Below are positions 1 through 32,000 of a DNA stretch of 32,000 nucleotides, piece after piece; position 1 is the stretch's first letter; each line of letters starts with the position of its first letter. The translations under genes were made by a program, and so were the position numbers. Source of the stretch: Candidatus Saccharimonadota bacterium (GTDB taxonomy: Bacteria > Patescibacteriota > Gracilibacteria > BD1-5 > UBA2023); contig JAXLZO010000001.1 in the NCBI GenBank assembly GCA_046350815.1, positions 870,001 through 902,000 on the forward strand, read 5' to 3'. The notes beneath the pieces are model-generated. The model was not told where the DNA came from. It worked only from the letters and a program-made list of their open reading frames with translations, and ran no database searches.

Positions 1-1325
1 CAATTATACAATCTTCATCACCCATTGTTGCTCTCAAAAGTGCAACGGGATCAGCAACTATTATTGATGCAAAAGGTGGAGTTCGTGATATAAATCAATC
101 TGCAACACCTTTTCTTTCACAAGATGGTATTCTCAAGGTTTCCCAATGACTTGTGACGCTCAGTGGTACTGGTGTAAAAATTATTCTTGATCGATCATCT
201 GAAATTGACTACCAAAGAAATGATGACACAAAAATAAATCAGTTCGATCTCAAGAGTGGAAATGCATGGGTTGAGCTATCTACCATACGATCCGAAGTTT
301 TTGCACTCAAGAATTTTCAGATTATGAGTAGTGCTGACGATAGTGTGCTTATGCTCACTCAAAATGGTATATCGAGTACTGTTGCTGTACTGCAGTGAAA
401 AGTTTCTCTTTCTACAAAAGTTGCATCACTGACAATTTCAGCTGGAGATATGGCAACACTCTTCGCACAGGATAGTGAAAAGCCTGATTTGAGTGATCGG
501 ATACAACCTATTTCTGATGCGCTCAAATCGAGTAGCTTAGCTCTTTCTCAAGGGATAGATGACTTTATTCAAGCTATTGCCATGAGGTCATGAGTTTCAT
601 CAGGTACAACTCTTGCTTCTGACAATACTATTGTTTCTCTCGATAATAATTGAGCATCAATTCCATCTTCATCAGGTGCAGTAATTTTTTGAAAATATCT
701 TGAAATTACTTCTCCAAAAGATGGATCAACAGTGAACAAAAATACAATAGTTGTGACATGAAAAATATATTCAGATAGCATTACGAAAGTACTTATTAAT
801 GAAAAACAAGCTATTATTGGCAAGGAAGCAACCTTTTCCCTTGCAGATGTACCACTTGGATCACTTCAAAACACGATTCTCTATAAAGCTTTGAATGCTC
901 AAGGAAAAATTCTCGATAGTGGTTATATTACAGTAAAAAATCCAACTGGAATAGCACCGGTAACAACAACCACACAATCGAATAACTTTCTCCTTGCAAA
1001 TGAGAAGCTCTACTACATAACAGAGCCAAAAGCGAATCCATATCAAACAACAGAAAAACAGGTTACCATACGAGGTGTAGTACCAAAATGAAAGGTAAAA
1101 TCTATACAGGTGAATGGTTATACGCTCAAGCAATTTCTGCCATATTCAACGACTTGGAAATATACAGCATCGAAAGATGGTGGAAATATGGGAAGTGACC
1201 TCAACCTCTATCATATCGTCTACTATGGTATGAACGGTGAGAATCTTGGGTCTACTCTCTATTCTATAGTTCTTGCGGACAATGAAACCTCTCAAACACA
1301 AGTCGCCACTGGATCATCACGTTAA
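1..1325 (+). CDS. C-terminal part of a large secreted/surface protein (5' end outside window), beta-rich repeated modules
   Basis: Single open frame (codon phase from nt 3) ending at TAA 1323-1325 if TGA is sense. It has 7 in-frame TGA and no TAA/TAG. Track ORFs 153-398, 891-1091 and 1110-1325 are pieces of this frame. No family recognised. Confidence 0.6.
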
Positions 1326-1992
1326 TTCATTTTATTTTCGCTCATCCCAGTGACTTACACTTATCGAGGTAATGGTGGTTATTGTGGTGGTAACAGCTGG
1401 TATTGTATGAGCGTTTGGTGTTCTCTCAAGTGGACAAAAACTCGCTGCAACTACAACTGATCGAGTACAGGCAATCAATTTTGCTCGAGAGGGGGTTGAG
1501 GCAGTTAAGAATATTCGTGACACCAATTATGCTCAATACCCAGCAAATCCAAGTGATTGTTGGATCGTGAAAGACTATGATTGTGGGTGAGTAAAATATG
1601 AAACCGGATCGTATGTGCTTGCTCGCAAAGATTTTTTGATCTGATGAACAAAGATTTGTGATCACTGTTGGTATCTTTCTGGAACAACCACTTCTCCAAA
1701 TCTTGCAACGAAACCAGATAGTTCAGCTTGGAATACCTACGGGTCGACATATGCACTCGAGTTAGATGGAAGTGGGTATACCATAACTTGATCAACATCC
1801 TCATGAAAACCTATATGTCGAAATAGTACCAATACGGGATGTTTAACACAATTTACCAGAGAAATTGCTCTCAAACGAGTCGAGAATGATACTATTGAAT
1901 TTTCATCTTATGTTCGTTGGCGTGATGCAAATGGAACTATTATGACGGTGGAGCTTCCAATGACCCTCAAAAATTGGCGTACGAAATTCTAA
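1282..1992 (+). CDS. prepilin-type N-terminal cleavage/methylation domain protein (minor pilin/pseudopilin)
   Basis: ATG 1282. Leader MKPLKHKSPLDHHVNSFYFRSSQ-G|LTLIEVMVVIVVVTAGIV matches the class III signal G|(F/L)TLIE plus hydrophobic helix. The cleavage Gly is TGA 1351-1353. The frame stays open (6 TGA) to TAA 1990-1992. The start overlaps the upstream CDS by 44 nt and is uncertain. Confidence 0.75.
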
Positions 1993-2008
1993 ATATTTTT
2001 CTTATTTT

Positions 2009-2686
2009 ATGCAAGTACGAGACCTTACCATTCAATATGGAAATAGAATCATTCTTGAACATATTTCTCTCGATATTCCCAAGGGAGATTTTGTTTTTTT
2101 GATTGGAGCATCGGGTTCATGAAAAACAAGTTTTGTAAATACCCTTATCGGATCGATTATTCCAAAGGGTGGTGAAATTATTTCGGATAATAAAGGAAAA
2201 ATTAATCTTCTCTCCAAGAAATCGCTTCAGGATTATCGAAGAACTATTGGCGTTATTTTTCAAGACTACAAACTACTTCCTCGTAAGACGGTTGAAGAAA
2301 ATGTATCCTTTGCACTTGAAGTGAGTGGCTACACAAACCGTGAAATCCAAGAACGTCTATCAGTGGTGCTCACAAAGGTGGGTCTTATCCATAAGCGAAA
2401 AGCTTTTGTAGAAGAGCTTTCTGGCGGAGAACAGCAGCGTGTAGCTATTGCACGAGCACTCATCCATGATCCACAGATGATTATTGCTGATGAACCAACA
2501 GGAAATCTTGATCCTGAAAATGCTCTCGATGTTATGTCTCTTCTTGAGGAACTTCATCATCAAGGAAAAACATTGATTATTGCAACACACGATGATAGAA
2601 TCGTTGATCGCATGAGCAAACGAGTGATTGCTTTTGGAAATGGATGAATTCTTTTTGATCGAATTGGATGATATGCAACAAAATAG
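2009..2686 (+). CDS. ftsE: cell-division ABC transporter ATP-binding protein FtsE
   Basis: 225 aa. Walker A is GASGS-G-KTS with the Gly encoded by TGA 2120-2122; also has the LSGGEQQRVAIARA signature, Walker B IIADEPTGNLD and an H-loop ATHD. Runs through TGA 2645 and 2669 to TAG 2684-2686. Confidence 0.9.
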
Positions 2687-4233: not shown

Positions 4234-7200
4234 ATGATTCTCACTCCACTTCGTTCCATTTTTCTCGCTCTTTTCTGATGCGTATTTGGATTTTGGGTTT
4301 ATTCGTCAATTGCTGTTTATTTTGCTGCAAAAGTCTATCCATCACATTCACCCGAGTCTATCCAGGGTTTTGGTTGGGTACTTGCACTGGTAGCTCTCTG
4401 ATTTGTTCTATATTCAGCGTGGAGCCAAAGTAGAACGATACGTTATACTCATTCGATTCTGAGCGTTTTTGGAGTTTTTCTCCTCATTCATCTTCTGATT
4501 GCATTTGCTTACACTTCCACACAGTCAGCAAATCTTGCGAATATTTTTTGAGCTTGATCTGGCGTATTTGGTATTGCTGTTGGTATTTTTGCAAAAAGTG
4601 TAGGCTTTATGATGCTTCCTCTCTGTTTTTTGTGAATATTCTATACAGTTGGAGCAAACGCAAATTCGATCGTATGACTTAAGGTCGGATCACAAGTTAG
4701 TCTCTCCGTCTTTCGCCTGCTTTCTGTGATGCTGTGAGCGGCACTATACATTATTTTACTCAATATTCTTGGAGCGTTTGGTATTTTTCAAGTGTCCGTT
4801 GTTTTGATAGCTACGCTCGTATTTGCCCTCATTGGTGCTACTCAGTATGGTAATCTTCTCAGAATCATAGTTGAAAAAGAGGCAATAGAATCAAAAAGTA
4901 GCATTCTCTCTTCTATTGTTGCTCAGCTCTTTGTGCTTGCATTGATGATTTTCTTCTCATCAAATATTCTCTCCATCCTTCGTCCCATGCCGATAGGTTG
5001 GGATGATCTTGGTGTTTATATGAACTTTCCTCGTCTGATCGCTCTCTCTGGTGAGAGCGGATGAATGGGGCTTATTGCTTGGCAACATTTTACATCGATT
5101 GGGTTTCTTCTGGGAAGTCCGACACAGGCATTTTTCCTCTCGGAGCTTGGTGGTATTCTCCTTGTGATTGCTTGTATTCTCGGAGTACGATCAATTGCAG
5201 ATGCACATATATCAAAACATTCATTTTGGCCTTTTGTAGTCGCAACATCTATGGTGAGCCTACCGATGATTGTCTTTCATCTTGCGAAGGATATGAAAGT
5301 AGACCCTGCACTTTTTGGTATATCTGTTGGTGCTTTCGTGGCTCTTATGAGCGCTCTGCGAATTGATCGATCAAAACAAGGGGTTGTTGATACACAAGAT
5401 CATCCATTTTTAGCTCAAATAGCTTGCTACATTCCGTCGCTGAACCCTCAGTCATTTGTATTGATCATCATAGCTGGTATTCTCACATGAGTTGCTTTTG
5501 CTATTAAGATGACAACGTTGATGCTCTTGATTGCAGCGTTTGCGATGATCTTTTTTCGCTATGCGAAATATCTTGGACTCGCAGTATATACATCACTTTT
5601 TCTTTGAATCTTTACCATTGGAAAACTCTGGTCAATCATGAATGTTGATTTTCTTTCCAATCTTCAAAATCCTCGAATGATTGTTGGAGGCGCGTTTCTG
5701 GCTATTGCGACCGCATTGATCATTGGGACTCTGTATTCAAAACAGTATTTTCTTCGAATTAAAAATGCTTTCCTTGTTTCCATAGTATTCGGTATTTCTT
5801 TTGTTCTCGCTCTCTCTCCATGGCTTATCAAGAATATATTTGAAATATATTCTCATCCAAATGGTCTAGCTCCTCAGTTCACGGAAATTCTTTCGGGTCG
5901 ATGAAATTATTTTGCTCCTGAGTGGAAAAAAGTATATTCCGAGAACGAGCTTGCCAATAAAGAAGCAGAGCAAAAAACAAATCTTACGAGTCAGTCGGGT
6001 CAAACAACCAATGAAGATTTTGGCCGATATTTCGGATATGAGTCATGACTCAATAATGCGCTCAAGCTTCCACTCAACCTCACAACACAGATCAATCAAT
6101 CAGGTGAATTCACCAATATTGGATTCTTCTTTCTTGCGCTCGTACCACTGATGTGAATAGCGCTCGTGCGATCACGTGCTCATGCACTCCTTTTGTTGTG
6201 ACTTATTCTCTTCTTTGCACTCTACTATTTTCAAAGAGGTATCACTGCAGAACTTTCAGGATTTTTTGCAACAATCAACTATCCTTATGCGTATATCTAT
6301 ATCATATCGATCGTAGCACTCGTGCTTCTTGTTTCTCTCTTTGGTCTCAAGATCTCTGAGAATGATAACGAGAGTAGTCGTGCTGAAATTCGTGATATTC
6401 GTCTTGTGCTCGTAGCTCTCGCATATTATGGATTTATATTTTGGATATCTTCCTATGGTATCGTATGGTACGGGATATTGATTTATTTTCTCTTCTTTCT
6501 TGTTATTATTTTTGGTGCACGAATGATTGATCGCGAGATCGATGATCTTATTGGTGAGCCAACTTCATTAGCGGCTGGTATTTCAGTGATAATTATTGGT
6601 TGTTTTGTATTTTTTTCTGCTGTGCCTCATGCATGGACGAATGTTCTGAGTGCAGGCTTTCTCGAATACAAGACAGGTCTTATGACGAGCGAATCGGTGG
6701 TATACAAGACTCACGATGATCCAATACTTGCGACGCTCAATATCAATGATCAGGCAAAAGCAGTAGCAGAGCTCATTCGTGGGATTGATAATGAAAAAAT
6801 TCGTACGATATTCGAAGGGCAAAAAATTACCACTATGGAATCATATCTTCAAATGATTGATGGTATTGAGTCGCAACTTCGTGATGCAAAAGCTCTGGAT
6901 GTTACACTTCAAAATATGTTCTCCCAAATGAGAGAGCAGGCGTATATCTTTATCATGAATCCAAGTGATGAATTTCTCAATAATCGAAAAATATACCGTA
7001 TCGGTACATTTCTTACCTACTTCATACGCAACAATATTACTCGCTATCTTGATGATTCACTCGTCATGGAATACGATCGTATGATTTCTTCACCGAATGA
7101 TGATACGGCAGCAGAGAGGCTCGATAAACTCTGAATTGGCTATCTTCTCATTGATCTGAATGCAGCCACGATAGATCGTGATCCGCGACATGATTTAACC

Positions 7201-7590
7201 ACTCGATTTGAGTCGCTTATAGCAAATACTCGCAGTGATCATTTGAAACTCATTCATACTGATTCTATGTGTTTGAGACTTGCATTGAGCAATAAAAAAG
7301 ATCTCTCGAGAGATCAATTTCTCTCTCTTGCTCATGTGAATTCCGAGAGTTATGTTCGTGATTCGTCTTGATCGATTGCTACAGTCTCTCGTGCTACAAA
7401 AATGGCTACATGTCGCCAACAAATATACACTCTTCTTAAGAGTGATAAGGAAATTCCATCATTCCTTGATCCATACAGAACCTACGCAAGACAGAATAAA
7501 TTCGACGATGAAAAACTCGCTGGTTATGTATCCCATATTGTTTGAGATCGATCTTCTGTTGCTCTCTTTGAGGTCGTGAAAACAAAATAA
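4234..7590 (+). CDS. 1118-aa polytopic membrane protein with a C-terminal soluble domain; possible GT-C-type glycosyltransferase (function not established)
   Basis: ATG 4234; one frame joins track ORFs 4792-5064, 5065-5490, 5638-5904 and 6322-7134 and continues through TGA to TAA 7588-7590. Many predicted TM helices. A loop motif RPMPIGWDDLGVYMNFPR resembles the acidic first-loop motif of GT-C enzymes. Lies next to the flippase. Confidence 0.6.
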
Positions 7591-8415: not shown

Positions 8416-9609
8416 CTACCACTTCCACTCAGTAATAAATTGTTCTTGGATGATCTGTGGAGCCTCGATCGATAATGGTTTTTTCTCTCAATTCTCATCG
8501 CGCTCTCGATAGTGTATGACAATGAGAGTAATATCATCGAACTGTTTGTATCCATACCCCATAAACCGTGAAAGTGCTATCGTAACAGCATTGAAGACAC
8601 TTTGAGCACTTTTATTTTCTACCTTTTCGATCGTCTGACAGAGTCTCTCGACGCCGAAGAGTGGGGAAGCAGTGGTGGGGCCACTGTGAGCCTCTGTGAT
8701 ACCATCGCTGTACATAATAGCAATATCACCAGGATCGAATTGTATCTGTATATCCTTGAGGCTCTTCGAGATATCCTTCATCATACCGAGCGCCATACCA
8801 CCTGATCGGATACGATAGATTTTTCTTTCTCATGCTTTGTAGATGAGGAGATATTCATGTCATGCTCCAGTCATATGGAGACTGCGATCATTTTCATCCC
8901 ACCTGAGCAGGAGGAGGGTCATGAGCATATTCGATTTTACACGAGGCTTGAGGACTTCATTCGTCGCTGCAAGTATCTCACTTCCGCTCTTGATCACACG
9001 GCTAAATCCTGATATGAGTGCATTGGTCATCATCATGATGAACCCACTTGCTACGCCATGCCCCGTTGCATCACCGAGGTAGATATAATATGACCCATTG
9101 CGCTCGATGATATCATACGAATCACCACCTACCTCGGTCGCTGATCGGCTATTCGCAACAATATCGAGTGATGGTATGCTCACATTATGAGGACGTGATA
9201 GTACGTGTTGCTGAATCTCGGCAGCGACTTCTACTTCGGATCGGAGAATTCGTCCCGCTGCAAATTCCCCTTTGTACCGCTCCAGTATCTCCAAGGCTCG
9301 TGTGAAGAATGCTGTTACAAAAGCTACCTCAGGACTAAATCGTGTAATCGCCACCTCGCCAGTATTTCATTTGCCAGCGAGAAACCGTGCAATCGCATCA
9401 CGCAGATCGTAGATCGGACCCAAAACAAAGATGATATAGATATAGAGAAGTCCAGCAATCGTCGAGAGTACCATAGCGACTCATCGAGGATCATAGATAT
9501 TCTTAAAGAGCTCTCTCGGAACCTCTATAAATCCCCCAAGTACCAGTCCAACCGAGATGGAGAAGATAAATGATAAGAAGAAAAGAAGCGTTGGAATATA
9601 GCGATTCAT
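8416..9609 (-). CDS. membrane-anchored HAMP-domain PP2C/SpoIIE-family serine phosphatase
   Basis: ATG at 9609. N-terminal TM segments (LLFFLSFIFSISVGLVLGGF, VAMVLSTIAGLLYIYIIFVL) and a HAMP-like linker, then PP2C motifs (EVGGDSYD, YLGDATGHG, MYSDGITEA, DDITLIV). Joins track ORFs 8860-9354 and 8488-8796 via TGA. Stops at TAG 8416-8418. Confidence 0.85.
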
Positions 9610-11544: not shown

Positions 11545-11793
11545 ATGACTACTATTGTTTCAAAATGGGGTAATAGTCTCGCCATACGCATCCCATCTGA
11601 TATTATCCAAAAGAGTAATCTTTGCATCGGTGATAAGCTCGATATGACTGTCTCACAGCATGGAAAAATTATTCTTGCTGCTCAACCAAAAGATATAAAT
11701 TTTTGAGAGCTGTATGAACAAATCACACCACAAAATCGATATAATGAAGAATTGATTCACAGTGAAGTTGGTAATGAAAAAGTTGTATGGTAG
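11545..11793 (+). CDS. mazE: MazE/PemI-type antitoxin (SpoVT/AbrB domain)
   Basis: MTTIVSKWGNSLAIRIPSDIIQKSNLCIGDKLDMTV matches the AbrB-like swapped-hairpin motif (v.kwGNS.avRiP). 82 aa, one TGA, TAG stop at 11791-11793. Overlaps the mazF start. Confidence 0.85.
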
Positions 11794-12140
11794 TGTCGCA
11801 ATATATACCGGATAGGGGTGATATTATTTGGATCGATTTTGATCCCCAAGCAGGACGAGAACAATCATGAAGACGACCAGCATTGGTCTTGTCACACAAA
11901 AAATATAATGAACGAGCAGAGCTCGTTATTCTCTGTCCTATCACCTCAAAAGCCAAATCATACCCTTTTGTTGTTCATCTCCCTGAAGATCTTCTCTCTA
12001 AGCCGAGTTACGTGCTCTCAGATCAGGTAAAAAGTGTAGATTGGATAAGACGAAATGCGACATTTTTAGCAAAAGCCCCAGCATCATCTCTGGAGGTGGT
12101 CACTCTCTTTGCTGTAGGTATTATCAAGGGGATGTGTTAA
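11787..12140 (+). CDS. mazF: MazF/PemK-family endoribonuclease toxin
   Basis: MVVSQYIPDRGDIIWIDFDPQAGREQS-G-RRPALVLSHKKYN...CPITSKAKSYPFVV..SDQVKSVDW aligns by eye with E. coli MazF (PDMGDLIWVDFDPTKGSEQAGHRPAVVLS). TGA 11868-11870 sits on the conserved Gly. Confidence 0.9.
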
Positions 12141-12517: not shown

Positions 12518-12748
12518 ATGAATCGTACTATCACTACAACACTTTCAGCACCGAAACTTTCTTTTCTTGAATCATATGCAAAGAAAATCGGTAAACCAAA
12601 AAATTACGTACTAGAACAAGGTCTCGAATTGTTAGAACAACATACTCTTGAGGAGGCAATTCGCGCTTGATTTGAGGAACGAGTCTCAGAATACAGAGAT
12701 CTCAATGAAGATTTTGCAAGAGCTCAAATCACATCAATGAGCAAGTAG
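12518..12748 (+). CDS. ribbon-helix-helix (CopG-like) antitoxin
   Basis: 76 aa. MNRTITTTLSAPKLSFLESYAKKIGKPKNYVLEQGLELLEQ fits a beta-strand/helix/helix RHH pattern. One TGA. TAG stop lies 1 nt before the ATG of the toxin. Confidence 0.65.
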
Positions 12749-12749
12749 T

Positions 12750-13088
12750 ATGAAACGATTTGATATTGTACTTGCAAATTTGGATCCGAGAAAATGACAT
12801 GTGCAAAGTGGTAATCGTCCTTGTCTCATCGTATCCTCAGATATTTTCAATAAGTATGCTCCAACGCTCGTAGTTATTCCATTTACGTCAACGATCCGAA
12901 AAGTATTTCCAAGTGAATGCATCATTGAACCATCCTATACAAATGGTCTCGTACAACAAAGCAGGCTCTTGGGAAGTCAAATTATTACTCTTGATAAGAA
13001 TTTTTTCTGAGAAAAACTTTGAGTACTTGATAGTTGTTATCACATTGAAATTGAGAATATCTTAAAATTGGTTCTTGACTTGAAATAA
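12750..13088 (+). CDS. second MazF/PemK-family toxin
   Basis: MKRFDIVLANLDPRK-G-HVQSGNRPCLIVSSDIFNKYAPTLVVIPFTS matches the PemK motif (dP..G.Eq.G.RP.lVis.d). 3 in-frame TGA, the first on the conserved Gly. TAA at 13086-13088. Confidence 0.85.
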
Positions 13089-14918: not shown

Positions 14919-15383
14919 TTATACTCGAATATGGCGCAGATGAAAGAGAGCAATAGATCCTGCAATTGATACATTGAGTGAGTTTTTCGCTCCATGCATT
15001 GGTAAATAGATGAGTCCGCTACTTTTTGTTCGGGCATACTCACTTACTCACTCAACCTCATTTCCGACGATCAAATAGAGAGTTTTTGTACTATCTTTTG
15101 GCTGATAATCATAGATATCTTGACCACCATATCATTCCTCAAGTGCCAGAATCTCACAATCTTCTCATTGTTTATTCTCAAAGAAATCCTCAATATGGAG
15201 AAAATATTCCCATGGTACACATGCTTCAGCTCAGAGAGCTGTCTTGGTGATCTCGCGACGTGGGGGAATAGCTGTATATCCGATCAGGATAATCTGAGGA
15301 GATCCAGCACCATCGCTTGATCTCCAGAGGGCGCCGATATTGTGAAGTGAACGGATATTTTCGAGAACCAGAATAATTTGCAT
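14919..15383 (-). CDS. SpoU/TrmH-family RNA 2'-O-methyltransferase
   Basis: MQIILVLENIRSLHNIGALWRSSDGAG...LIVGNEVEGVS...IYLPMHGAKNSLNVSIAGSIALFHL carries the three SPOUT motifs. 4 in-frame TGA. TAA at 14919-14921. An alternative GTG start at 15419 would add 12 aa. Confidence 0.85.
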
Positions 15384-17413: not shown

Positions 17414-18568
<1,155 letters not shown>

Positions 18569-18576: not shown

Positions 18577-18981
18577 TTACAATTGATCCATAGCAACATT
18601 GGAGAGTCGATCAGCCTCGCTATTGAGCTCACGACAAATATGGGTGAAATCAATCTGTCCACCCCATTCACGAATACTTTTTTGTATCTCTTCGGCTATC
18701 TTCTTGAGTTCAAGGTTTTTAATCTTGTATTCTCCATTGAGCTGACGAATCATGAGCTCACTGTCAGCAAATGCATGAATTCGAGTTGCTCATAGCTCTA
18801 TAGAGCGTTTTACTCAGAGAAACATGGCAGTGTATTCTGCTTGATTATTGGTAGCTATTCCGAGTGCTTTGTATCTTGCTTCAATTTTCTGATCATGAAC
18901 ATCGGTAATATAGACTCCACAGCCAGATTTTCCAGGGTTTCATCGCGAGCCACCATCTGTATAGAGCTTCACTATTTTCAT
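18577..18981 (-). CDS. rnhA: ribonuclease HI
   Basis: 134 aa. [54 protein letters not shown] contains the D-E-D-D catalytic pattern. 3 TGA on Gly positions. ATG at 18981 overlaps the pheS end by 10 nt. Confidence 0.9.
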
Positions 18982-20000
18982 GCGAATTGTCTGAGTGCTC
19001 GAATATCTGTGTGCATAAATATACGCATATCATCAATACCATATCGGATCATGGCGAGACGATTGAGTCCAAATCCAAATGCAAAACCTGAGTATTTTTC
19101 TGTATCAACACCACCATCTTTAAGTACATTTGGATGCATGAGTCCTGCACCCATAAATTCGATCCATCCGGATTTCTTACATACTTTGCATCCTGATCAT
19201 TCACAGAACGGGCATGAAAAATCTATCTCTACACCCGGCTCAACAAATGGAAAAAATCCAGGTCGCATACGAATAGATACTTCTTTTCCGAAGAGATCTT
19301 TGAGCATGGTTTCGATGGTATACTTGAGGTTGGCGAGAGATATTTTTTCTCCTACAACCATTCCCTCTACTTGGTAGAATGTATTGTCATGGGTTGCATC
19401 AATATCCTCATTGCGAAAAACACGATCAGGAACAATAACTTGAAATGGTGGTTTACGGGCTTTGAGAATGTTGTTTTGTTGGCTTGATGTTTGGGTAGAG
19501 AGTACATACTTTCCTCACTCGATCCAATACGTATCCTGCATATCGCGAGCCGGATGACTTGCGGGAACGTTCACTGAATCAAAATTCTCATATTCAGTAA
19601 CAATTTCTTTCGCTTGCCATATCTCAAATCCCATACGGGTAAATGTATCCATAACGTCGTTTATCACGAGCGTGAGTGGATGAAGTGCTCATCGTTGAAT
19701 ATCTTTTTTTTCCGTAAGATCTTCCCATTCTTTGTGAAGTTGTTCTTGCACTTTCTGATCTTCTATTTCTGCTTCTTTCTGAGTATACAATTCTTCAAGC
19801 TCGAGTCGGAGTGTATTTGCATCTTTTCCGAGTGTTGCTCGCTCTTTCGGTGTTGCGTCTTTGAGTGATTTGAGAATCGAGCTAAGTTCTCCGGTTTTTC
19901 CAAGGAGAGTATTTTTCCACTCGAGAAGATGATTGAGATCTTTGACTTGCTCAAGCTGAGAAAGAGCTGATGTTCGAATATTGAGAATAGAAGGATTCAT
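18972..20000 (-). CDS. pheS: phenylalanine--tRNA ligase alpha subunit
   Basis: 342 aa. N-terminal coiled coil (track ORF 19689-20000), then [30 protein letters not shown]...FHQ-like..EG, class II motif 3 [13 protein letters not shown]. In-frame TGAs. TAG at 18972-18974. Confidence 0.9.
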
Positions 20001-20002: not shown

Positions 20003-21136
20003 CTATATTTTAAGTGGCATGATGATATGTCGGAATGCTTGTGATTCTGGATTTGCCGCTGGAACACCATGAACAAGGATAGGGGAGAGCGGTGTCTCGA
20101 AATCAAGCGATACAAAATCTTCACGAATAACACCGAGAACTTCGAGAAGAAACACTACATTGAGTCCTACACGTTCTTCATTTCATTCAAGTGAGGCTTT
20201 TACTATGGTTCGACCGTTTCCTATTTGTGTTTCACCAGTGCTAATTTCGATCCCAGTCTCATGACTGAATGAAATACGTATGTTATCTTTATTCTCTCGA
20301 GCAATCAGTTGTATACGACGAAGTCCAGATATAAGCTCATTTCTGGATGCAACGACTTTAGTGGAGAATGATTTTGGGAAGAAATTCGTATAATCAGGAA
20401 ACTTGCCTTGTATGAGGCGCGAGGTGACCACCGTGTTTCCGATAGTAGCGCTCATAGATCCGTCACCAATAGCAAGAATCGTTTCTCCTTTATCATCTTT
20501 GAGTGATTTGAGCACTTCGTGAGCGCTACGATCTGGAATGATAGTATGCTTGCCACTTACATCGCCATCAATATCCATAGGAATTCTATATTCTGTGAGG
20601 CGATATGAGTCTGTTGAGGCAAAGGCAATAGAGGATTCATCGAATTTTACATAGACACCAGCAAGTGAGGGGCGTACATTTTCCTTGGCTGTTGAAAAAA
20701 GAGTTTTTTCGAGAGCATTCTTGAGTGCTGAATTTGCGATTGATACATGCATATTTCGCACAATATTTGTATCAGGCAAAGGGAATTTTCCCGCATCCAT
20801 TCCTTTAATTTTGGTTTCACTTGAAGCACTCTCAAGTGCTATCATTCATGTAGTGGAGTTGAGACTTACTTCGACTCTATCGTCACCCAGAAGTGATACA
20901 TAAGAGCTGAGTATTTTTGAACCGATGGTAAAATTTCCAGTTTCAAGAATTTCAACATTCTCCGAAATAGTTGTATCAATTGTAATGTCAAGGTTGGTTC
21001 CAACGAGTCGGACACTTTCGGGGCGGGCTTCGATATAGACATTCTCAAGTATAGGGGTCACTGGATTGACTCCCGTAACACGCGATACAGTATCGAGTGC
21101 TTCTTTGAGGCGAGCGGTAGAAAGTATAAATCTCAT
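20003..21136 (-). CDS. dnaN: DNA polymerase III beta sliding clamp
   Basis: 377 aa from ATG 21136. Joins track ORFs 20846-21199 and 20183-20845 and a C-terminal piece via 2 TGA. Three-domain clamp pattern (MRFILSTARLKEAL.., NPVTPILENVYIEA, ..GVYVKFD.., ..FSTKV.., ..MPLKI). TAG at 20003-20005, 2 nt before the pheS start. Confidence 0.9.
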
Positions 21137-22437: not shown

Positions 22438-22516
22438 GCGGGGGTAACATAAAAGAGTGAGTGTACTAAGGCTTCAACCCTTGGGTGTGCCAGTTCGAAC
22501 CTGGTCCCCCGCTCCA
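22438..22516 (+). tRNA. tRNA-Gly with anticodon UCA (decodes UGA); CCA encoded
   Basis: Hand-folded cloverleaf. Acceptor gcggggg/cccccgc, discriminator T, CCA. D-stem acat/gtgt. Anticodon stem (c)taagg/ccttg(g), loop cttcaac with anticodon tca at 22474-22476. T-arm gccag-ttcgaac-ctggt. G1:C72, C2:G71, G3:C70 and U73 are the bacterial GlyRS identity set and are shared with the neighbouring tRNA-Gly(GCC). Confidence 0.85.
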
Positions 22517-22996: not shown

Positions 22997-23074
22997 GCAG
23001 TCGTAGCTCAGTTGGATTAGAGCGCCTCCCTGCGAAGGAGGAGGTCATAGGTTCGAGCCCTATCGATTGCACCA
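22997..23074 (+). tRNA. tRNA-Arg (anticodon GCG); CCA encoded
   Basis: gcagtcg-ta-gctc-agttggatta-gagc-g-cctcc-ctGCGaa-ggagg-aggtc-atagg-ttcgagc-cctat-cgattgc-a-cca. Anticodon at 23032-23034, discriminator A73. Confidence 0.85.
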
Positions 23075-24501
23075 TTACATACCTTAAGAGCCTTACTCAA
23101 CTCGAAAACCTCGTTTTTCCTGATGCATAAGGCTTTTTTATTGTCCAAAATGAGTTCGACAGCAAGAATTTTGATTATATCCCTTTTTTTCTCAAAAGAA
23201 GCATTTTTATAATGTTGGACTATATTTATAAGAGGTTCGACAATTTCACTTGCTTCTGTGAGTAAGTCAATATTCACGTCTTGAATGAGCTTCAATGCCT
23301 CATCAATCTCTAAGAGTTCAGCGTGGTTTTCCTCGTTGGACTTTTTGAATTGTTCTGCGGATATTTCTCCATTTGCACGCATATCAAGATAGCCATCCAT
23401 CTTCTTATTGATTGCCTTTTTCTTATTCATGAGGGTCATTCTTTTTCTCTCATTATCTTTGATAATATTCTTCGTTTCTTGGATAGATCCATCGATAATA
23501 ATTTGAGCTATTTCTCTGCTAATCTCAAACTCATCAATACATTGATCGAAATATTCAATGATTTTCTTCTCACTTATTCGCACAGCACCAGCTCATCGCC
23601 CATGGTAATATACTACCTTACTCATTCTTCCAGTTGATTCCGATGCCGAAAGAATATTCCCGTGCATATCTTTAACGAGTCATTTAAATGGGAATTGTTC
23701 TCGTGGTGTTACTGCCTTGAAAACAGTATTTGCCCTATCCCAGAGATTTTTATCAACAATTGCAAAAGCTTTGTTCATAATTACTTCTCATCAGAAATGC
23801 ATGAGTCCATAATATGTCTTTGTGCGAAGTATTTGCTCCACGGATTTTCTCGTAAAATTGTTACTTTTCCATCCATGATCACTCTTGAGAATGTCTTTTG
23901 CTCTCACATGTTCAGCGATCGCATGAGTAGTCCATCACTTATTCACTCGTAGATCAAATATTTCTTGAATCTGTTCTGCTTCGACTGGATCTACTACCCA
24001 AGTATTATTTTCATCTTTTTTGTACCCACGAGGTCATCTGGTAACAAACTGTCCCTTCCTAAATTTTGTAAGCATGCCACGCTTAATATCCTCCGCCAAC
24101 TTCATAACGTAGTGATTCGCAAAAGAGAGGATCACAGCCATCATCATCGTGCTCTCTTGCTTTCCAAAGACTCCATCAGATACGGTATGCACCTTTTGGA
24201 TTTGTCCTCTCTGAACAATCGTCTGGAGCTTTGCCCCGTCGATCGGATTTCGAGAGAGACGATCTAATTTCCAAGCGACAATACCATCAGCCTCTCACTT
24301 TTTACAGCGATCAATCATCGCTTGAAACTTTGGGCGTGTTTCCTCAATCTTTGCAGAGAGGACTTCTTCAAATATCTCAATGACCTCAAATCATTCTCTC
24401 GTACAAAGAGACTCACACTCAAGTCTCTGAGACTCCAGAGAGAGTTGCTGCTTGTCCTCACGATCAGTGGACTTGCGTAGGTAGATAAAAACTCGAAACA
24501 T
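23017..24501 (-). CDS. large serine recombinase (integrase)
   Basis: 494 aa from ATG 24501. N-terminal resolvase catalytic domain MFRVFIYLRKSTDREDKQQLSLESQ...GIVAWKLDRLSRN, then a recombinase domain and C-terminal coiled coil (track ORF 23017-23583). About 8 in-frame TGA. The last 58 nt overlap tRNA-Arg antisense. Confidence 0.9.
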
Positions 24502-24580: not shown

Positions 24581-24958
24581 TTATATCCTATCGAGATCAC
24601 GAAAGTCATCGATTCACCGAGTATCTCATAGAGCATCTCATGATTTCTTTTGGAGAACTGAGAAGTTTGTGGTGTGAATCTCGGCTACTTTCTTCCTGAC
24701 ATCATTCTCCTGAAACTCTGAGTACTGAAGACGACCGGTTATATAGAGAGTGTCTCACTTTGAGACCATATCGCTCATCTTCATAGCAAGAGTACCCCAG
24801 GCGACACATGAATGATACTCTGGGATAGTTTGTCCGCTTCGATCGCTGCGATTCGTAGCAATCTGAAAGTTCAGAAACGTATCACCATTTTTAAGCTCTT
24901 TCCGTGTAGGGTGTGAGCAAATATTTCCGAGAATGTTGATTTGATTGATTGAGTGCAT
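24581..24958 (-). CDS. ssb: single-stranded DNA-binding protein
   Basis: MHSINQINILGNICSHPTRKELKNGDTFLNFQIATNR....HSCVAWGTLAMKMSDMVSK-G-DTLYITGRLQYSEFQ is the OB-fold SSB pattern, with an acidic C-terminal tail ..GIDDFRDLDRY. ATG at 24958, TAA at 24581-24583. Confidence 0.85.
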
Positions 24959-24987: not shown

Positions 24988-25353
24988 TTATATTTTTTCC
25001 ATTTCGTTTACTATCCTGATAGCATCTTCGTATCAGTGTGCAAAAAAAGCACCGACATTGTTGATGCTTGAGAGTGCTTGTATCCACTCTTCTTGAGTTG
25101 GATCAATGTGTGAGTCGTTGAGTCATCCTTTCGGTCATCTCTCTTTTTTCATCTCGAGAAAGAGAAGAGATCATCTCTTGAGAATAATCATGAAGTCAGG
25201 AACTCATGGGGAGACTCCCATGCGTTTTTTCTTCGCTCCGACGATCATGGCGACCTTTGGAGGGAGTCATGACTCATTGGCTATATGTGTGAATATATAC
25301 CTATGCAAGACGAGCCATCGTGCGAAGGCTTCTGAGTGTTGTGTTTCGGTCAT
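24988..25353 (-). CDS. VRR-NUC domain nuclease
   Basis: 121 aa. ...KRMGVSP-G-VPDFMIILKR-G-SLLFLEMKKER-G-..QEEWIQAL.. matches the PD-(D/E)xK VRR-NUC motif (G.PD...lE.K...Q..w). 6 in-frame TGA. Verified codon by codon. TAA at 24988-24990. Confidence 0.8.
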
Positions 25354-25648: not shown

Positions 25649-25655
25649 TTACTAA
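25649..25655. repeat. target-site duplication TTACTAA (left)
   Basis: An identical 7-mer lies directly outside each IS terminus. Confidence 0.75.
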
Positions 25656-26408
25656 GGGTCTAAACCAGTTACGGGTTATATTGACGAAGTAACTTTAGCA
25701 CTTCCTTATAAATATCTTTTCATTGAATACGACAATTATATCTGAATTCAGATTCTTTCAAAAAATAGTAGAAGTAGACTTTCTTGATTCCATTGAATTG
25801 AGAGAGTCTTCTTTTGGTATAACTCCAAAATGACTCTATTCAATTAATGTGTTGAGTTCATCTTGCAAATTCATTTGCTCCGTGATGAACACGGTAGTGT
25901 TTCTCATATCCAATATCTACAAGCCCATCATAAGCTCACCATCCATCACTGTTAATCTCAGACTCTTCTATACGAAGTTTTCATCGAATGATTGGCACGA
26001 GAGTCCTTGCTTTTACATCAGGAACTATCTCAGTATATACTTTTCAGTTTCTTTTGAGTAAACCAAAGACTATTGTCTTCATACCAGCTCACCTTCCTCT
26101 CTTTCATCGGACTCTTGTTGGTCAGAAGTAACTCTCATCTATCTCAACATTTCCAGTCCATATTTCATTCTTTTCTCTCTCACAGAGAAAGGCTATCGCC
26201 TTTCTGATATATCTATACCAATCCTGTGTTGTTTTTGGATTGAGACCTGTTAATACCGCTGTTTTATCTGAAGTAAAATCCAGAGAAAAATATTTCACAA
26301 TTTCTCTTATTTTTGCATCTCAAATTCGTGATTTTTTCCTATAGGTAGTTTTACTGATCATAGAGCCAAGTTTATGGGATAATTTATCCTGTCAACTGGT
26401 TTAGACCC
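25656..26408 (-). mobile_element. IS1595-family (IS1016-like) insertion sequence, 753 bp
   Basis: Terminal inverted repeats gggtctaaaccagtt (25656-25670) and aactggtttagaccc (26394-26408), a single DDE transposase ORF, and a 7-bp TSD. Size, GGG termini and TSD length fit the IS1016 group as described in ISfinder. Confidence 0.8.
25669..26361 (-). CDS. IS1595-family DDE transposase (230 aa)
   Basis: ...NVEIDESYF-G-PTRVR-G-KRGR-G-AGMKTIVFGLLKRN-G-KVYTEIV..INSDGW-G-AYDGL...HINGIESFWSYTKRRL..FYYFLKESEFRYN matches the DDE_Tnp_IS1595 pattern. 11 in-frame TGA. The stop TAA 25669-25671 lies inside the left IR. Confidence 0.85.
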
Positions 26409-26415
26409 TTACTAA
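26409..26415. repeat. target-site duplication TTACTAA (right)
   Basis: See the left copy at 25649-25655. Confidence 0.75.
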
Positions 26416-28969: not shown

Positions 28970-30010
28970 CTATTTTTCTATTAAAAACAACCTTACTTCC
29001 TCCTCTCTCCTCTTCAGTAATCCCTTCAGCTGTCTCCCTCCAGCCCCATTCTTCCAATACTCAATCTTCGGTTGTCACTTCTTCACCTTTGCCGTGACTC
29101 GAAGGTAGCATCGCTCACAGTTGTACCGGAGTGATGTAAGAGCTGCAATCTTGTTGTCGGAACTTTTCGGATAGTTCTTACGGATTCTTGCGATGAGCTT
29201 GTCTACAATTTCTTGTAGTCTTCGCTCAGCTTCCTGTTTGGTTATTTTCTCGCCTGCATACGATCGAGTTCCGTATCCAATGGAGTATCCGAGGTGATCC
29301 CAGTAGGCTGTGAGCCTGAGTCCTTCGTATTTTCGGATCATTTCGAGCGCGAGTACTCTCGCAGATGATTCGTTCCCATGTATATTCTCTCAAGCATCCT
29401 TCCGTGGGCTTGAAGGAGCTTTTCATGTTTGTTTAGCCACTTGTAGTTTTCGATCTGATCAAGTGATATTTCACGAATCTTTTCCCACACTCGATTGAGT
29501 TGTAGGAGAATATATATGGTTACTACCAGATTGCACAGAAGGCTTATTGAGAATGTCATCATGAGCATATGCTGTCGTGATTAGTGATGGTCTGGGGGGT
29601 GCGGTGGAAACTGCCCCACCGCTAGCATTCTTTTGTGTGTTTGTACATTCGAATGAGACCAAGCGAATGCATCCATCGAGATCCTGAAGTCTTGAGTCTG
29701 CATTCTGAAGTTTGTCTTCATTCGCTTTCTTGTTCTTGAGGTATTCCTGGTAGAGAGCATCTTGTTTCTTTTGAGCTTCGTCCATTTCTTTCAGGATGGA
29801 TGCTTTGTTGTCCTCGAGGTACTTTTGTTCGACTTCGTAGTCGTGTATGAGTTTTTGTTGCATTGCTTTATACGTCTTTGCTTCATCAACCTTTTCAGAG
29901 AGATGAGAGACATAGAATCAGAGAGCAATCACCAAGATTGCGAAGAGGATCGCATCAAGATTGTTTCTTACTATACCCGAGAGCGTAGATGTGATTTTTG
30001 GAAAATTCAT
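28970..30010 (-). CDS. membrane-anchored GH24 (phage-type) lysozyme: N-terminal TM anchor, coiled coil, Ser/Thr/Pro-rich linker, lysozyme domain
   Basis: With TGA as sense, one frame runs from ATG 30010 (MNFPKITSTLSGIVRNNLDAILFAILVIAL-G-FYVSHL) through track ORFs 29471-29863 and 29075-29341 to TAG 28970-28972. The GH24 motifs ..ARVLALEMIRKYEGLRLTAYWDHLGYSIGYG.. and the post-TGA tail ..EYWKNGAGGRQLKGLLKRREEE lie on both sides of TGA codons. Start is uncertain (30010, 29863, or an internal GTG). Confidence 0.7.
29338..29568 (-). CDS. embedded out-of-frame ORF encoding a single-TM protein (holin-like candidate)
   Basis: MLMMTFSISLLCNLVVTIYILLQLNRVWEKIREI... has one N-terminal TM helix plus a charged tail. 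It lies wholly inside the linker-coding part of the lysozyme ORF. Its TGA (29338-29340) overlaps ATG 29341 as ATGA. Under table 25 it would run on to TAA 29242-29244. Confidence 0.3.
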   Translation of the reverse strand: MLMMTFSISLLCNLVVTIYILLQLNRVWEKIREISLDQIENYKWLNKHEKLLQAHGRMLERIYMGTNHLREYSRSK

Positions 30011-30027
30011 AGAGGAATTTTTGGAAT

Positions 30028-30445: not shown

Positions 30446-30521
30446 GATTTACTCCTCTTTATTCGTGTCTGTTTCTATATTTTATGTATATTTATATACT
30501 AGTCAATATAATTATATGCTA

Positions 30522-30692
30522 CTATCATGTTTTCTCCTTTCTCTTCTGCCAATCCTTGAATCCGTTTTTGAGACTCTCTGGAGAGTGATATGGGACTCTC
30601 ATATTTTGACGAATTCCTTCGGGAGTGTGGATTACCTGCCCAATATCGATGAGATATTGCATGTAGCTATCCTTGGTTGGATCTGCAATCAT
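30522..30692 (-). CDS. hypothetical small protein (56 aa)
   Basis: ATG 30692; MIADPTKDSYMQYLIDIGQVIHTPEGIRQNMRVPYHSPESLKNGFKDWQKRKEKT; ends TGA-TAG at 30522-30527. Confidence 0.4.
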
Positions 30693-30730
30693 AGAGCTAG
30701 ATTGTTATCACCTTGAAGGCGAGAAATAAA

Positions 30731-30760
30731 AGAAAAATGCCCATCATAAGTAGGCATTTG
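30731..30760 (-). terminator. candidate terminator after the DnaC-like gene
   Basis: The minus strand reads aaatgcc-tacttatgatg-ggcattt followed by ttcttttatttc. Confidence 0.5.
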
Positions 30761-30793
30761 TCGAGTTCGTGAGCGTGGGATGTTGGGATTCGT

Positions 30794-31315
30794 TTACGCA
30801 TGTTTTTGTGTGCTGTAAGTTACGATCTCGGTGCTCGAACGTCGTCGATCTTCTCATCGCATCACAATGACGGTAGCATTATGGAGCACACGAGATACGA
30901 TGCGTTCATTGAGTTTTTCTTTGAGTTCTTTTTCGGTGAGATTGGTGGTGAATATGGTCGGGAGTTTCTTGATCGATCGCTCATCGAGAATATAGGTAAG
31001 ATCTCGGATATATGCATCAGTGACATCGGAAACTCAGATGTCATCGTAGAGAACGAGTGATGAGCGAATGAGCATCTCGAGTGGATACATCTGGATAGAA
31101 CATTGCCATTCATCGGGTTTTCGATGATTCATGAGTCCTGAGGCAATGTATTTTTTGAATTTTGCATCACTGATTTCATACTTGATACTCTCACTGTTGT
31201 ATTTCTCCATGAGCTTCTTGGCAATGTATGTCTTGCCAACCCCTACCGGTCAACAGATCACAAGATTCTTCGAGAAGTCGAAACTCTCAAAAAAATCAGA
31301 AGTAATTTCAGTCAT
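30794..31315 (-). CDS. DnaC/IstB-like AAA+ helicase-loader ATPase
   Basis: 173 aa. Walker A is LVIC-G-PVGVGKTY with the first Gly encoded by TGA 31250-31252. Walker B is LVLYDDI-G-. Sensor region TIFTTN. Frame and ends verified (ATG 31315, TAA 30794-30796). Confidence 0.85.
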
Positions 31316-31323
31316 AGGAAAAA

Positions 31324-31962
31324 TTAGAAGTTGAAATTGTCTCGATCTCTCTCGTGAGATGGTTTTTCTTTTTTTGCGGAACTTTTCTCAAGCCAGTTTT
31401 TTGTAGTAAGAAAAAGAGATTTGTATTTTGTATTTCCCTTATAGTTTTCTATCTGGTCCAAAATCTCATCGATCTGAACTTTTGAAAATCATAGGGTGAT
31501 GAGTTTTTGAAATTCATCCTGCGAAATTGAAAGATGTGCGAATTGCCTATATGTATTAATACTAATATTTATATTAGTATTATTCTTTCTTTCTTTAGTG
31601 GTGGTTATCCGTTGGTTATTTGCTGGTTGCTCGTTTGTTGCTTGGTTGGTTATTTCACCTTGATACAAATCATATTTTTCTATTGTCAGCTTGGTGTAGT
31701 AGCTGGTTGTTTCGCTGGTTATTTCGTTGGTTGATTTTAACCGAGTGAGACACGTGCGAATTTGTTGGTCTGAGAGGCCTGTTTCCTTTGATAATTTGTC
31801 TCGAGAGGTGATAAATTCTCAGCGTTTTATCATTTTTCCTTTCCATTTTTTATCCGCATAATTTGCCTTGAGGAGGATATGGAGAAAGAGTCGCATAGTG
31901 TTAATATCGTCATACCACTCCCACTCAAGCATTTTTCGATGGAGTTTGATATAACCTTCCAT
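31324..31962 (-). CDS. phage replication initiator / DnaD-like replisome organiser
   Basis: 212 aa. MEGYIKLHRKMLEWEWYDDINTMRLFLHILLKANYADKKWKGKMIKR-G-EFITSRDKLSKETGLSDQQIRTCLTRLKSTNEIT is a winged-helix N-domain typical of phage replication proteins. The C-terminal ..SQDEFQKLITL-G-FSKVQIDEILDQIENYKGNTKYKSLFLTTKNWLEK is a DnaD-like motif. TAA at 31324-31326. Confidence 0.8.
31558..31581. repeat. perfect AT-rich palindrome inside the initiator gene
   Basis: aatactaatat-tt-atattagtatt. Confidence 0.85.
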
Positions 31963-32000
31963 ATGCTAAGTATTAGAAATTGGGCGTATCTCGTAACTGG

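What the first reader, a model, noticed from the sequence alone, without database searches (positions are those of the whole stretch)
1..32000. Whole window is written in a UGA=Gly genetic code (table 25); the standard-code ORF track is an artefact of this
Almost every recognisable gene is broken in the standard-code track into same-frame pieces separated only by TGA, never TAA/TAG. Where I can place the protein on a known family by eye, the TGA falls on an invariant or near-invariant Gly. Examples: FtsE Walker A GASGS-G-KT (2120-2122); DnaC-like Walker A C-G-PVGVGKT (31250-31252); MazF EQS-G-RRPALVLS (11868-11870); the second MazF DPRK-G-HVQSGNRP; Tgt LM-G-VGTP and VE-G-I; RNase H DGGSR-G-NPG; VRR-NUC SP-G-VPD; the IS transposase ESYF-G and RGR-G. 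Genes end at TAA or TAG. This pattern is the known property of Gracilibacteria/Absconditabacteria (CPR), and it changes every annotation in the window. UGA use is uneven: none among the 15 Gly codons of ppa, but about 10 in tgt and 11 in the transposase.
Basis: partly seen in the sequence, partly recalled or inferred. Interest (0 to 1): 0.85.

Follow-up and report, generated by a model that had tools for sequence, protein, structure and literature searches.

The report
UGA read as glycine (code 25)

Summary
I called 31 ORFs that end only at TAA or TAG. They hold 135 in-frame TGA codons, and 29 of the 31 have at least one. Read through, they give full-length Pfam matches (Tgt, PheS, DnaN, FtsE and others).

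- **Column votes.** Of 41 TGA positions alignable to standard-code homologues, Gly is the commonest residue at 27 and Trp at none. Three Tgt positions are Gly in 79 of 79 genomes.
- **DNA of relatives.** In two related metagenome contigs, TGA swaps with GGN codons 21 times and with TGG never.
- **The decoder.** A tRNA with anticodon UCA lies at 22438-22516. It has the glycine identity set G1:C72, C2:G71, G3:C70 and U73, lies 41 bases upstream of tRNA-Gly(GCC), and is 100% conserved in a relative.

Best protein hits are Candidatus Gracilibacteria. CGA and CGG still behave as Arg, so this is plain table 25. The uneven UGA use reflects a prophage-like element at 23-32 kb (33% of Gly codons) against the core genes (20%). 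The zero in ppa is within chance. Loss of RF2 could not be tested. The code is already known, so interest is low.

The parts
1..32000 (.). Whole window: genes on both strands use TGA as a sense codon. There are 135 in-frame TGA codons in 31 ORFs, and all ORFs end at TAA or TAG.
22438..22516 (+). tRNA with anticodon UCA, the UGA decoder (ARAGORN labels it 'SeC' only because of the anticodon). 79 nt with a 7-bp acceptor stem, G1:C72, C2:G71, G3:C70, U73 and an encoded CCA. The D loop is 10 nt and has no GG.
   Evidence: Rfam tRNA, 44.6 bits; 100% identical in relative L081. Identity rule from PMC8629427.
22558..22634 (+). tRNA-Gly(GCC), 41 bases downstream of tRNA(UCA). It has the same G1:C72, C2:G71, G3:C70 and U73.
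22997..23074 (+). tRNA-Arg(GCG), at the border of the prophage-like element. The 3' end of the integrase ORF overlaps it on the opposite strand.
17414..18568 (-). tgt, with 8 in-frame TGA. Three of them (18290-18292, 17882-17884, 17789-17791) sit on columns that are Gly in 79 of 79 standard-code genomes.
2009..2686 (+). ftsE, with 3 TGA. The one at 2120-2122 is the Walker A glycine, and it is GGC in relative L086.
18972..20000 (-). pheS, with 4 TGA. Codons 104 and 268 fall on Gly columns. Codon 341 lies where homologues end.
18577..18981 (-). rnhA, with 3 TGA. Codon 14 is in DGGSR-x-NPG, which is Gly in 4 of 5 solved homologues.
20003..21136 (-). dnaN, with 2 TGA. All three beta-clamp domains are matched.
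14919..15383 (-). SpoU-family methyltransferase, with 4 TGA. Codons 51 and 112 fall on Gly columns.
15442..16029 (+). ppa (inorganic pyrophosphatase): 0 TGA and 15 GGN.
11545..12140 (+). mazE-mazF pair. The MazF TGA at 11868-11870 is Gly in 5 of 5 solved MazF sequences.
12705..13088 (+). Second MazF, with 4 TGA. The one at 12795-12797 is Gly in 5 of 5 solved homologues.
8416..9609 (-). SpoIIE/PP2C phosphatase, with 5 TGA. Codon 250 is Gly in relatives and GGA in L086. Its three CGG codons lie on K/R or polar columns.
4234..7590 (+). 1,118-aa membrane protein with 17 TGA and no Pfam match. It is the longest ORF freed by reading TGA.
23017..24501 (-). Large serine recombinase (phage integrase, phrog_95), with 8 TGA.
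24581..24958 (-). SSB, with 4 TGA. The one at 24755-24757 is Gly in all five solved SSB sequences shown.
24988..25353 (-). VRR-NUC nuclease, with 6 TGA.
25653..26411 (-). IS1595-family insertion sequence with 18-nt perfect inverted repeats at 25653-25670 and 26394-26411. The transposase (25669-26361) has 10 TGA, 5 of them on columns that are Gly in 4 of 4 standard-code homologues.
28970..30010 (-). Phage-type endolysin, with 6 TGA.
30794..31315 (-). DnaC/IstB-like helicase loader, with 3 TGA. Walker A (31250-31252) and Walker B DDIG (31034-31036) both align to Gly in DnaI.
31324..31962 (-). DnaD-like helicase loader or replication initiator, with 2 TGA.

Best explanation
The window comes from a bacterium of the Gracilibacteria type that uses NCBI translation table 25, in which UGA is a fifth glycine codon and only UAA and UAG terminate. 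A dedicated tRNA with anticodon UCA is encoded at 22438-22516, next to tRNA-Gly(GCC). It pairs with UGA and carries the acceptor-stem and discriminator elements that bacterial glycyl-tRNA synthetase recognises, so it is charged with glycine. UGA supplies about 23% of glycine codons here. The integrated prophage-like element and its insertion sequence use the same code.

Shown here: UGA is sense in essentially every gene; it stands at glycine positions; it exchanges with GGN codons in relatives; and the tRNA gene exists, has the identity elements and is conserved.

Inferred: the tRNA is actually charged by GlyRS, and release factor 2 is absent.
For: 1. **UGA is sense.** There are 135 in-frame TGA codons in 31 ORFs, 29 of which have at least one. 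Freeing TGA quadruples ORF content, while freeing TAA or TAG does not. Pfam matches run across the TGAs end to end.
2. **UGA means Gly.**
   - In Tgt against 79 standard-code genomes, three TGA columns are Gly 79/79. Pooled TGA columns are 60% Gly, against 68% at the window's GGN columns and 8% overall. Trp is 2 of 632 cells.
   - Solved structures and plasmid homologues put TGA on the FtsE and DnaI Walker A Gly, the DnaI Walker B DDIG Gly, the MazF Gly (twice), RNase H G-NPG, two SpoU Gly columns, PheS 104 and 268, the SSB KG turn, recombinase 69 and five IS1595 columns.
   - In total, Gly is the commonest residue at 27 of 41 columns and Trp at none.
3. **DNA of relatives.**
   - Contigs L081 (87% identity) and L086 (79-88% identity across its four aligned segments) show 21 TGA<->GGN exchanges, including the FtsE Walker A TGA<->GGC.
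   - They show no TGA<->TGG exchange. TGG stays TGG in 37 of 38 cases.
4. **Composition.** Gly is 7.0% of residues with TGA counted and 5.4% without. Trp would be 2.5% instead of 0.9% if TGA were Trp.
5. **The tRNA.** tRNA(UCA) has G1:C72, C2:G71, G3:C70 and U73. This is the rule used in PMC8629427 to call tRNA-UCA a glycine acceptor. It is 100% identical in L081, whose flanking DNA has diverged 13%.
6. **Taxon.** Named best hits of Tgt and the PP2C phosphatase are all Candidatus Gracilibacteria.
Against: - Nothing contradicts it, but some links are untested. RF2 absence cannot be seen in 32 kb. There is no protein-level evidence such as mass spectrometry. Charging of the tRNA is inferred from identity elements only.
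- The tRNA has A36, where the glycine anticodon element is C36. Its D arm is atypical: a 10-nt loop without GG, and an Rfam score of 44.6 bits against 68 for its neighbours.
- 14 of the 41 aligned TGA columns are not Gly-dominated (A, Y, R, T, K, E and so on). These are variable columns. In one of them, IS1595 codon 142, standard-code homologues have Arg or Gln.
- 10 of 31 TGA exchanges with relatives are to Ser, Ala, Gln or Leu codons. Ordinary replacements at variable sites would give this.
Confidence: 0.97

Rival explanations
1. UGA is read as tryptophan (table 4), as in Mycoplasmatales, Entomoplasmatales and some insect endosymbionts.
For: Table 4 restores the same long ORFs. Public pipelines translated the closest relatives this way: P0001 and P0121 carry W at these positions.
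Against: - Trp is the commonest residue at 0 of 41 aligned TGA columns, and makes up 2 of 632 cells in Tgt. The window's own TGG columns are 51% Trp in the same alignment, and 116-117 of 120 in the PP2C alignment.
- There is no TGA<->TGG exchange in relatives, against 21 TGA<->GGN.
- The tRNA(UCA) has U73 and G1:C72, not the G73 used as the tryptophan identity mark (PMC8629427).
- Trp content would be an abnormal 2.5%.
Confidence: 0.01
2. UGA is mainly glycine but still ambiguous. A retained RF2, or weak decoding, would make some UGA codons terminate, especially those near natural C-termini.
For: - RF2 status is unknown.
- The PheS TGA at codon 341 lies where homologues end, and two hypothetical genes have TGA at the last or second-last codon.
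- PMC8629427 reports two species classified as Gracilibacteria that keep RF2 and lack the tRNA.
Against: - 131 of 135 TGA codons lie more than five codons before the stop, including at catalytic and P-loop glycines of essential genes. Frequent termination would be lethal.
- Enrichment in gene tails is not significant (4 against 2.5 expected, P = 0.23).
- The tRNA(UCA) is present and under strong conservation.
Confidence: 0.02
3. Standard code, with broken genes (pseudogenes or sequencing errors) or selenocysteine or programmed read-through at UGA.
For: ARAGORN labels the tRNA 'SeC'. Table 11 shows fragmented genes.
Against: - All 135 interruptions are TGA and none is TAA, TAG or a frameshift. 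44 of them are conserved as TGA in independent relatives.
- The tRNA is 79 nt with a 7-bp acceptor stem, a 5-nt variable loop and U73. It is therefore not a tRNA-Sec, which has an 8-bp acceptor stem, a long variable arm and G73.
- Aligned columns are Gly, not Cys or Sec.
- 1.6% of all codons is far beyond any known Sec usage.
Confidence: 0.005

Closest known systems
NCBI translation table 25 (Candidate Division SR1/Absconditabacteria and Gracilibacteria: UGA = Gly); Campbell et al. 2013 and Rinke et al. 2013 as cited in PMC8629427; Hanke et al. 2014 (PMC4032931)
   Same: - UGA is sense at glycine positions, and genes end at UAA or UAG.
- A tRNA(UCA) has G1:C72, C2:G71, G3:C70 and U73.
- The G+C content is low to moderate (39%).
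- Best hits are Gracilibacteria.
- The prophage is also dense in in-frame TGA, as reported for all Gracilibacteria prophages in PMC10746230.
   Different: - Nothing differs in kind.
- The organism is distant from named genomes. Tgt is at most 62% identical to named Gracilibacteria, and the best species representative found by the pattern scan is 59%.
- Unlike the Absconditabacteria described in PMC8629427, CGA is the commonest Arg codon and sits on invariant Arg columns. CGG columns are K/R or polar, so there is no CGA or CGG change to Trp.
Translation table 4 (UGA = Trp; Mycoplasmatales, Entomoplasmatales and some endosymbionts)
   Same: The same stop codon is captured by a tRNA with anticodon UCA, and the same effect on ORF length is seen.
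   Different: The amino acid is Gly, not Trp, by column votes, codon exchanges and tRNA identity elements.
Selenocysteine decoding of UGA
   Same: A UCA-anticodon tRNA reads UGA.
   Different: The tRNA lacks Sec-tRNA architecture. UGA occurs in nearly every gene at Gly columns, not at rare Cys-like or redox sites.

Membership tests
Genetic code 25 (UGA = Gly) | In-frame UGA inside conserved protein-coding genes, with full-length homology only when UGA is read through | tested here: met
   135 TGA in 31 ORFs; end-to-end Pfam matches across them
Genetic code 25 (UGA = Gly) | UGA positions align to glycine columns of homologues from standard-code organisms | tested here: met
   Gly commonest at 27 of 41 columns; three Tgt columns are Gly 79/79; Trp commonest at 0 of 41
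Genetic code 25 (UGA = Gly) | tRNA with anticodon UCA carrying glycine identity elements (G1:C72, C2:G71, G3:C70, U73; rule in PMC8629427) | tested here: met
   22438-22516: all four elements present, CCA encoded, 100% conserved in L081
Genetic code 25 (UGA = Gly) | Termination only at UAA and UAG | tested here: met
   31 of 31 ORFs end at TAA (22) or TAG (9), and their ends match homologue ends
Genetic code 25 (UGA = Gly) | Release factor 2 (prfB) absent from the genome | not testable with these tools
   Only 32 kb is available, and there is no prfB or prfA in the window.
Genetic code 25 (UGA = Gly) | Organism belongs to Gracilibacteria or Absconditabacteria | tested here: met
   All named best hits of Tgt and the PP2C phosphatase are Candidatus Gracilibacteria. 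There is no rRNA or ribosomal-protein phylogeny, so placement rests on best hits only.
Genetic code 25 (UGA = Gly) | Glycine actually inserted at UGA (peptide evidence) and tRNA(UCA) charged by GlyRS | not testable with these tools
   Needs proteomics and an aminoacylation assay.
Genetic code 4 (UGA = Trp) | UGA positions align to tryptophan columns | tested here: not met
   0 of 41 columns; 2 of 632 cells in Tgt
Genetic code 4 (UGA = Trp) | tRNA(UCA) with tryptophan identity (G73 discriminator) | tested here: not met
   The discriminator is U, and the first pair is G1:C72.
Absconditabacteria-type extended code (CGA and CGG = Trp, PMC8629427) | CGA and CGG are rare and align to Trp columns | tested here: not met
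   CGA is the commonest Arg codon (120) and sits on invariant Arg columns of Tgt. CGG occurs 18 times, two of them inside the since-trimmed N-terminal extension of ssb, so about 16. Of the five CGG codons that could be aligned, none falls on a Trp column: Tgt 376 is K/S/E; PP2C 348 is K 56 / R 46, 111 is N and 75 is mixed; SSB codon 19 faces M/L/I.

The most novel reading that the evidence does not exclude
Mobile DNA confined to code-25 hosts may be systematically richer in UGA-Gly than the host core genome. Here the shares are 33% against 20% of Gly codons, with 50% in the IS1595 transposase. If general, this would suggest either relaxed selection that lets GGA drift to UGA, or a lock-in that stops these elements from functioning in standard-code bacteria. 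Also not excluded: the atypical D arm of the tRNA-Gly(UCA) may be an adaptation that limits misreading of UGG.
Probability: 0.25. Interest if true: 0.35.

Novelty: already known. Interest (0 to 1): 0.2.

Why it matters
The value is practical. Any annotation of this window with table 11 is wrong for 29 of 31 genes, because the proteins are truncated. Table 4 inserts Trp at catalytic glycines. That error is already present in public protein sets for the closest relatives, which carry W in columns that are Gly in all 79 standard-code genomes compared. The window also holds the decoder tRNA itself, and a prophage and an IS element written in the same code. These are useful material for studying how mobile elements track a host's altered code. 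It does not open a new question, because UGA = Gly in Gracilibacteria and Absconditabacteria has been established since 2013.

Tried and rejected
- **Representative-protein search.** I used the genome-contig scan instead, which returned 79 standard-code Tgt loci.
- **Other window proteins against those loci.** tblastn of all other window proteins against the same loci gave too few hits to be useful.
- **Ancient stop codons in gene tails.** Enrichment of TGA in the last five codons is not significant (4 against 2.5 expected, P = 0.23).
- **A second reassignment (CGA or CGG to Trp).** Rejected: CGA lies on invariant Arg columns, and CGG lies on K/R or polar columns. One CGG in the prophage SSB faces a hydrophobic column, which I treated as noise.
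- **An att repeat of the tRNA-Arg 3' end.** I looked for one to delimit the element and found none inside the window.
- **Avoidance of UGA in ppa.** The zero is not significant after allowing for 31 genes, and core genes are homogeneous (P = 0.32).
- **tRNA and RF2 details in Hanke et al. 2014.** A term search found none.
- **Free-energy folding of the tRNA alone.** It did not recover the cloverleaf (z = -1.1). The cloverleaf was read by hand and is supported by ARAGORN and Rfam.
Full report

Yes. The window is 39% G+C.
- Under table 11 the longest stop-to-stop ORF is 310 aa, and ORFs of at least 100 aa sum to 6,463 aa.
- Treating only TGA as sense gives 1,174 aa and 28,591 aa.
- Freeing TAG or TAA instead gives only 11,310 and 10,289 aa.

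I called 31 ORFs that end at TAA (22) or TAG (9). With the three tRNA genes they cover 81% of the window. They contain 135 in-frame TGA codons in 8,546 codons, and 29 of the 31 have at least one.

Read through TGA, they match Pfam families from end to end:
- TGT 2-355 of 357, across 8 TGA
- PheS core 8-246 of 246
- all three DnaN domains
- ABC_tran 1-136 of 137
- SpoU, SpoIIE, two PemK/MazF, MazE, NUDIX, MFS, Polysacc_synt
- resolvase plus recombinase, SSB, VRR-NUC, DDE_Tnp_IS1595, cation efflux, phage lysozyme and IstB

**2. Which amino acid?**

Three independent lines give glycine.

*(a) Columns in standard-code homologues.* A scan of species-representative genomes returned Tgt genes from 79 ordinary bacteria, among them Clostridia, Bacteroidota, Bacilli and Proteobacteria.
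- At the eight TGA positions of the window's Tgt, three are Gly in 79 of 79.
- Two more are Gly in 45 of 79, and one has Gly as the commonest residue (22 of 79).
- The remaining two are Ala- or Tyr-dominated variable columns.
- Pooled, 60% of cells are Gly, against 68% at the window's own GGN positions and 8% overall. Trp is 2 of 632 cells, while the window's TGG positions are 51% Trp.

Alignments to solved structures and to plasmid-borne homologues add these Gly positions:
- the FtsE Walker A Gly
- PheS 104 and 268
- RNase H 14 and 64
- SpoU 51 and 112
- the MazF Gly in both toxins
- the DnaI Walker A and Walker B Gly
- recombinase 69
- the SSB KG turn
- seven IS1595 columns, five of them Gly in 4 of 4 homologues

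In all, Gly is the commonest residue at 27 of 41 alignable TGA positions and Trp at none.

*(b) Codon exchanges in relatives.*
- Contig L081 (ENA, 87% identical over 17415-23076) shows 23 conserved TGA.
- Contig L086 (Logan, four segments of 79-88% identity over 17-9778) shows 21 conserved TGA.
- Together they show 21 TGA<->GGN exchanges. These include the FtsE Walker A (TGA here, GGC there) and Tgt 369 (TGA here, GGA there).
- Ten further exchanges are with Ser, Ala, Gln or Leu codons.
- None is with TGG. TGG stays TGG in 37 of 38 cases.

*(c) Composition.* Gly is 7.0% of residues with TGA counted and 5.4% without. Trp would rise from 0.9% to 2.5% if TGA were Trp.

**3. Mechanism.**

- ARAGORN and Rfam find a tRNA with anticodon TCA at 22438-22516, 41 bases upstream of tRNA-Gly(GCC).
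- Read by hand, it has a 7-bp acceptor stem (GCGGGGG/CCCCCGC), discriminator U and an encoded CCA.
- It has a 5-bp anticodon stem with loop CUUCAAC, a 5-nt variable loop and a normal T arm.
- It therefore has G1:C72, C2:G71, G3:C70 and U73, exactly like the neighbouring tRNA-Gly(GCC). This is the rule Shulgina and Eddy used to call tRNA-UCA a glycine acceptor (PMC8629427).
- It is not a tRNA-Sec (no 8-bp acceptor stem or long variable arm) and not Trp-like (no G73).
- Both tRNAs are 100% identical in L081, although the surrounding DNA differs by 13%.

Shown: the gene, its elements and its conservation. Inferred: charging by GlyRS and the absence of RF2.

Its D arm is unusual, with a 10-nt loop lacking GG and an Rfam score of 44.6 bits against 68 for its neighbours.

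**4. What organism, and is the code exactly table 25?**

All named best hits of Tgt and the PP2C phosphatase are Candidatus Gracilibacteria, at no more than 62% identity. The closest relatives are unnamed metagenome contigs.

PMC8629427 reports CGA and CGG reassigned to Trp in Absconditabacteria, and possibly CGG in some Gracilibacteria, so I checked both codons.
- CGA is the commonest Arg codon (120) and sits on invariant Arg columns of Tgt.
- CGG is rare. I counted 18 before the ssb start was corrected; about 16 remain.
- Five CGG codons could be aligned and none falls on a Trp column. PP2C 348 is K 56 / R 46, PP2C 111 is N, PP2C 75 is mixed and Tgt 376 is K/S/E. SSB codon 19 faces a hydrophobic M/L/I column.

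This is plain table 25.

**5. Uneven use of UGA.**

TGA is 22.6% of Gly codons overall. Heterogeneity among genes is modest (permutation P = 0.024). It disappears within the core genes (P = 0.32).

The difference lies between the core (1-22987: 92 of 467, 19.7%) and the region 23017-32000 (43 of 131, 32.8%; Fisher P = 0.002).

That region is a prophage-like integrated element. It carries:
- a large serine recombinase (phrog_95 integrase)
- SSB and a VRR-NUC nuclease
- an endolysin
- DnaC-like and DnaD-like helicase loaders
- an intact IS1595 element with 18-nt perfect inverted repeats
- a cation-efflux gene

It starts at tRNA-Arg(GCG). This agrees with the report that all Gracilibacteria prophages are dense in in-frame TGA (PMC10746230). 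The zero in ppa (0 of 15) has P = 0.037 before correcting for 31 genes, and I do not count it as evidence of avoidance.

**6. Comparison and verdict.**

The system matches NCBI table 25 on every defining feature that could be tested: sense UGA, Gly columns, a tRNA(UCA) with Gly identity, TAA and TAG stops, and Gracilibacteria affinity. It fails the tests for table 4 and for selenocysteine. RF2 loss and protein-level proof remain untested.

The reassignment has been known since 2013 (Campbell et al. and Rinke et al., as cited in PMC8629427; Hanke et al. 2014, PMC4032931). The finding is therefore correct and important for annotation, but not novel.

One practical by-product: public protein sets hold the closest relatives translated with table 4. 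They carry Trp in glycine columns that are invariant across the 79 standard-code genomes (P0001, P0121).

Noticed in passing
window 22438-22516: The tRNA-Gly(UCA) has an atypical D arm: a 10-nt D loop (AAAAGAGUGA) without the usual GG, and two nucleotides between the D and anticodon stems. Its Rfam tRNA score is 44.6 bits, against about 68 for the two neighbouring tRNAs. Its anticodon has A36 where the glycine identity element is C36.
   Followed up: partly
window 23017-32000: A prophage-like integrated element begins at tRNA-Arg(GCG). It carries a serine integrase, SSB, VRR-NUC, an endolysin, and DnaC-like and DnaD-like loaders, plus a cation-efflux gene (27982-28911). The integrase ORF runs 58 nt into the tRNA-Arg gene on the opposite strand. 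The relative's contig L081 stops 30 bases past the same tRNA. No att repeat was found inside the window, so the far end probably lies beyond 32000.
   Followed up: partly
window 25653-26411: A small, apparently intact IS1595-family element (about 760 bp) has 18-nt perfect terminal inverted repeats. Half of the transposase's Gly codons are TGA (10 of 20), so the IS is unlikely to make a functional transposase in a standard-code host.
   Followed up: partly
window 1-22987 versus 23017-32000: TGA supplies 19.7% of Gly codons in core genes but 32.8% in the integrated element (Fisher P = 0.002).
   Followed up: yes
window 18978-18980 (pheS codon 341); also the last or second-last codon of the ORFs at 21700-22365 and 26861-27250: TGA lies exactly where PheS homologues end and is followed by one more codon and TAG. 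This may be a former stop codon that is now read through. Across all genes the enrichment in tails is not significant (P = 0.23).
   Followed up: partly
proteins P0001 and P0121; loci L081 and L086: Public predicted-protein sets (ENA, Logan) hold the closest relatives translated with table 4. They carry Trp in glycine columns that are invariant across the 79 standard-code genomes; for example, 9 to 20 of the 120 Tgt homologues have W in those columns.
   Followed up: yes
window 7591-8415, 10308-11544, 16894-17413, 27251-27981: These stretches of 0.5-1.2 kb have no convincing ORF under either code and no Rfam match at gathering threshold. Their content is unknown.
   Followed up: no
window 4234-7590: A 1,118-aa multi-pass membrane protein with 17 TGA has no Pfam match. 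It is conserved at about 79% DNA identity in L086.
   Followed up: no
window 11545-12140 and 12705-13088: There are two MazF-family toxins. One is paired with MazE (the genes overlap by 7 nt). The other has no recognisable antitoxin gene next to it.
   Followed up: no
window 24900-24902 (SSB codon 19, CGG): One of the rare CGG codons faces a hydrophobic column (M/L/I) in solved SSB proteins. The four other CGG sites that could be aligned are K/R, polar or mixed, so I treated this one as noise.
   Followed up: partly
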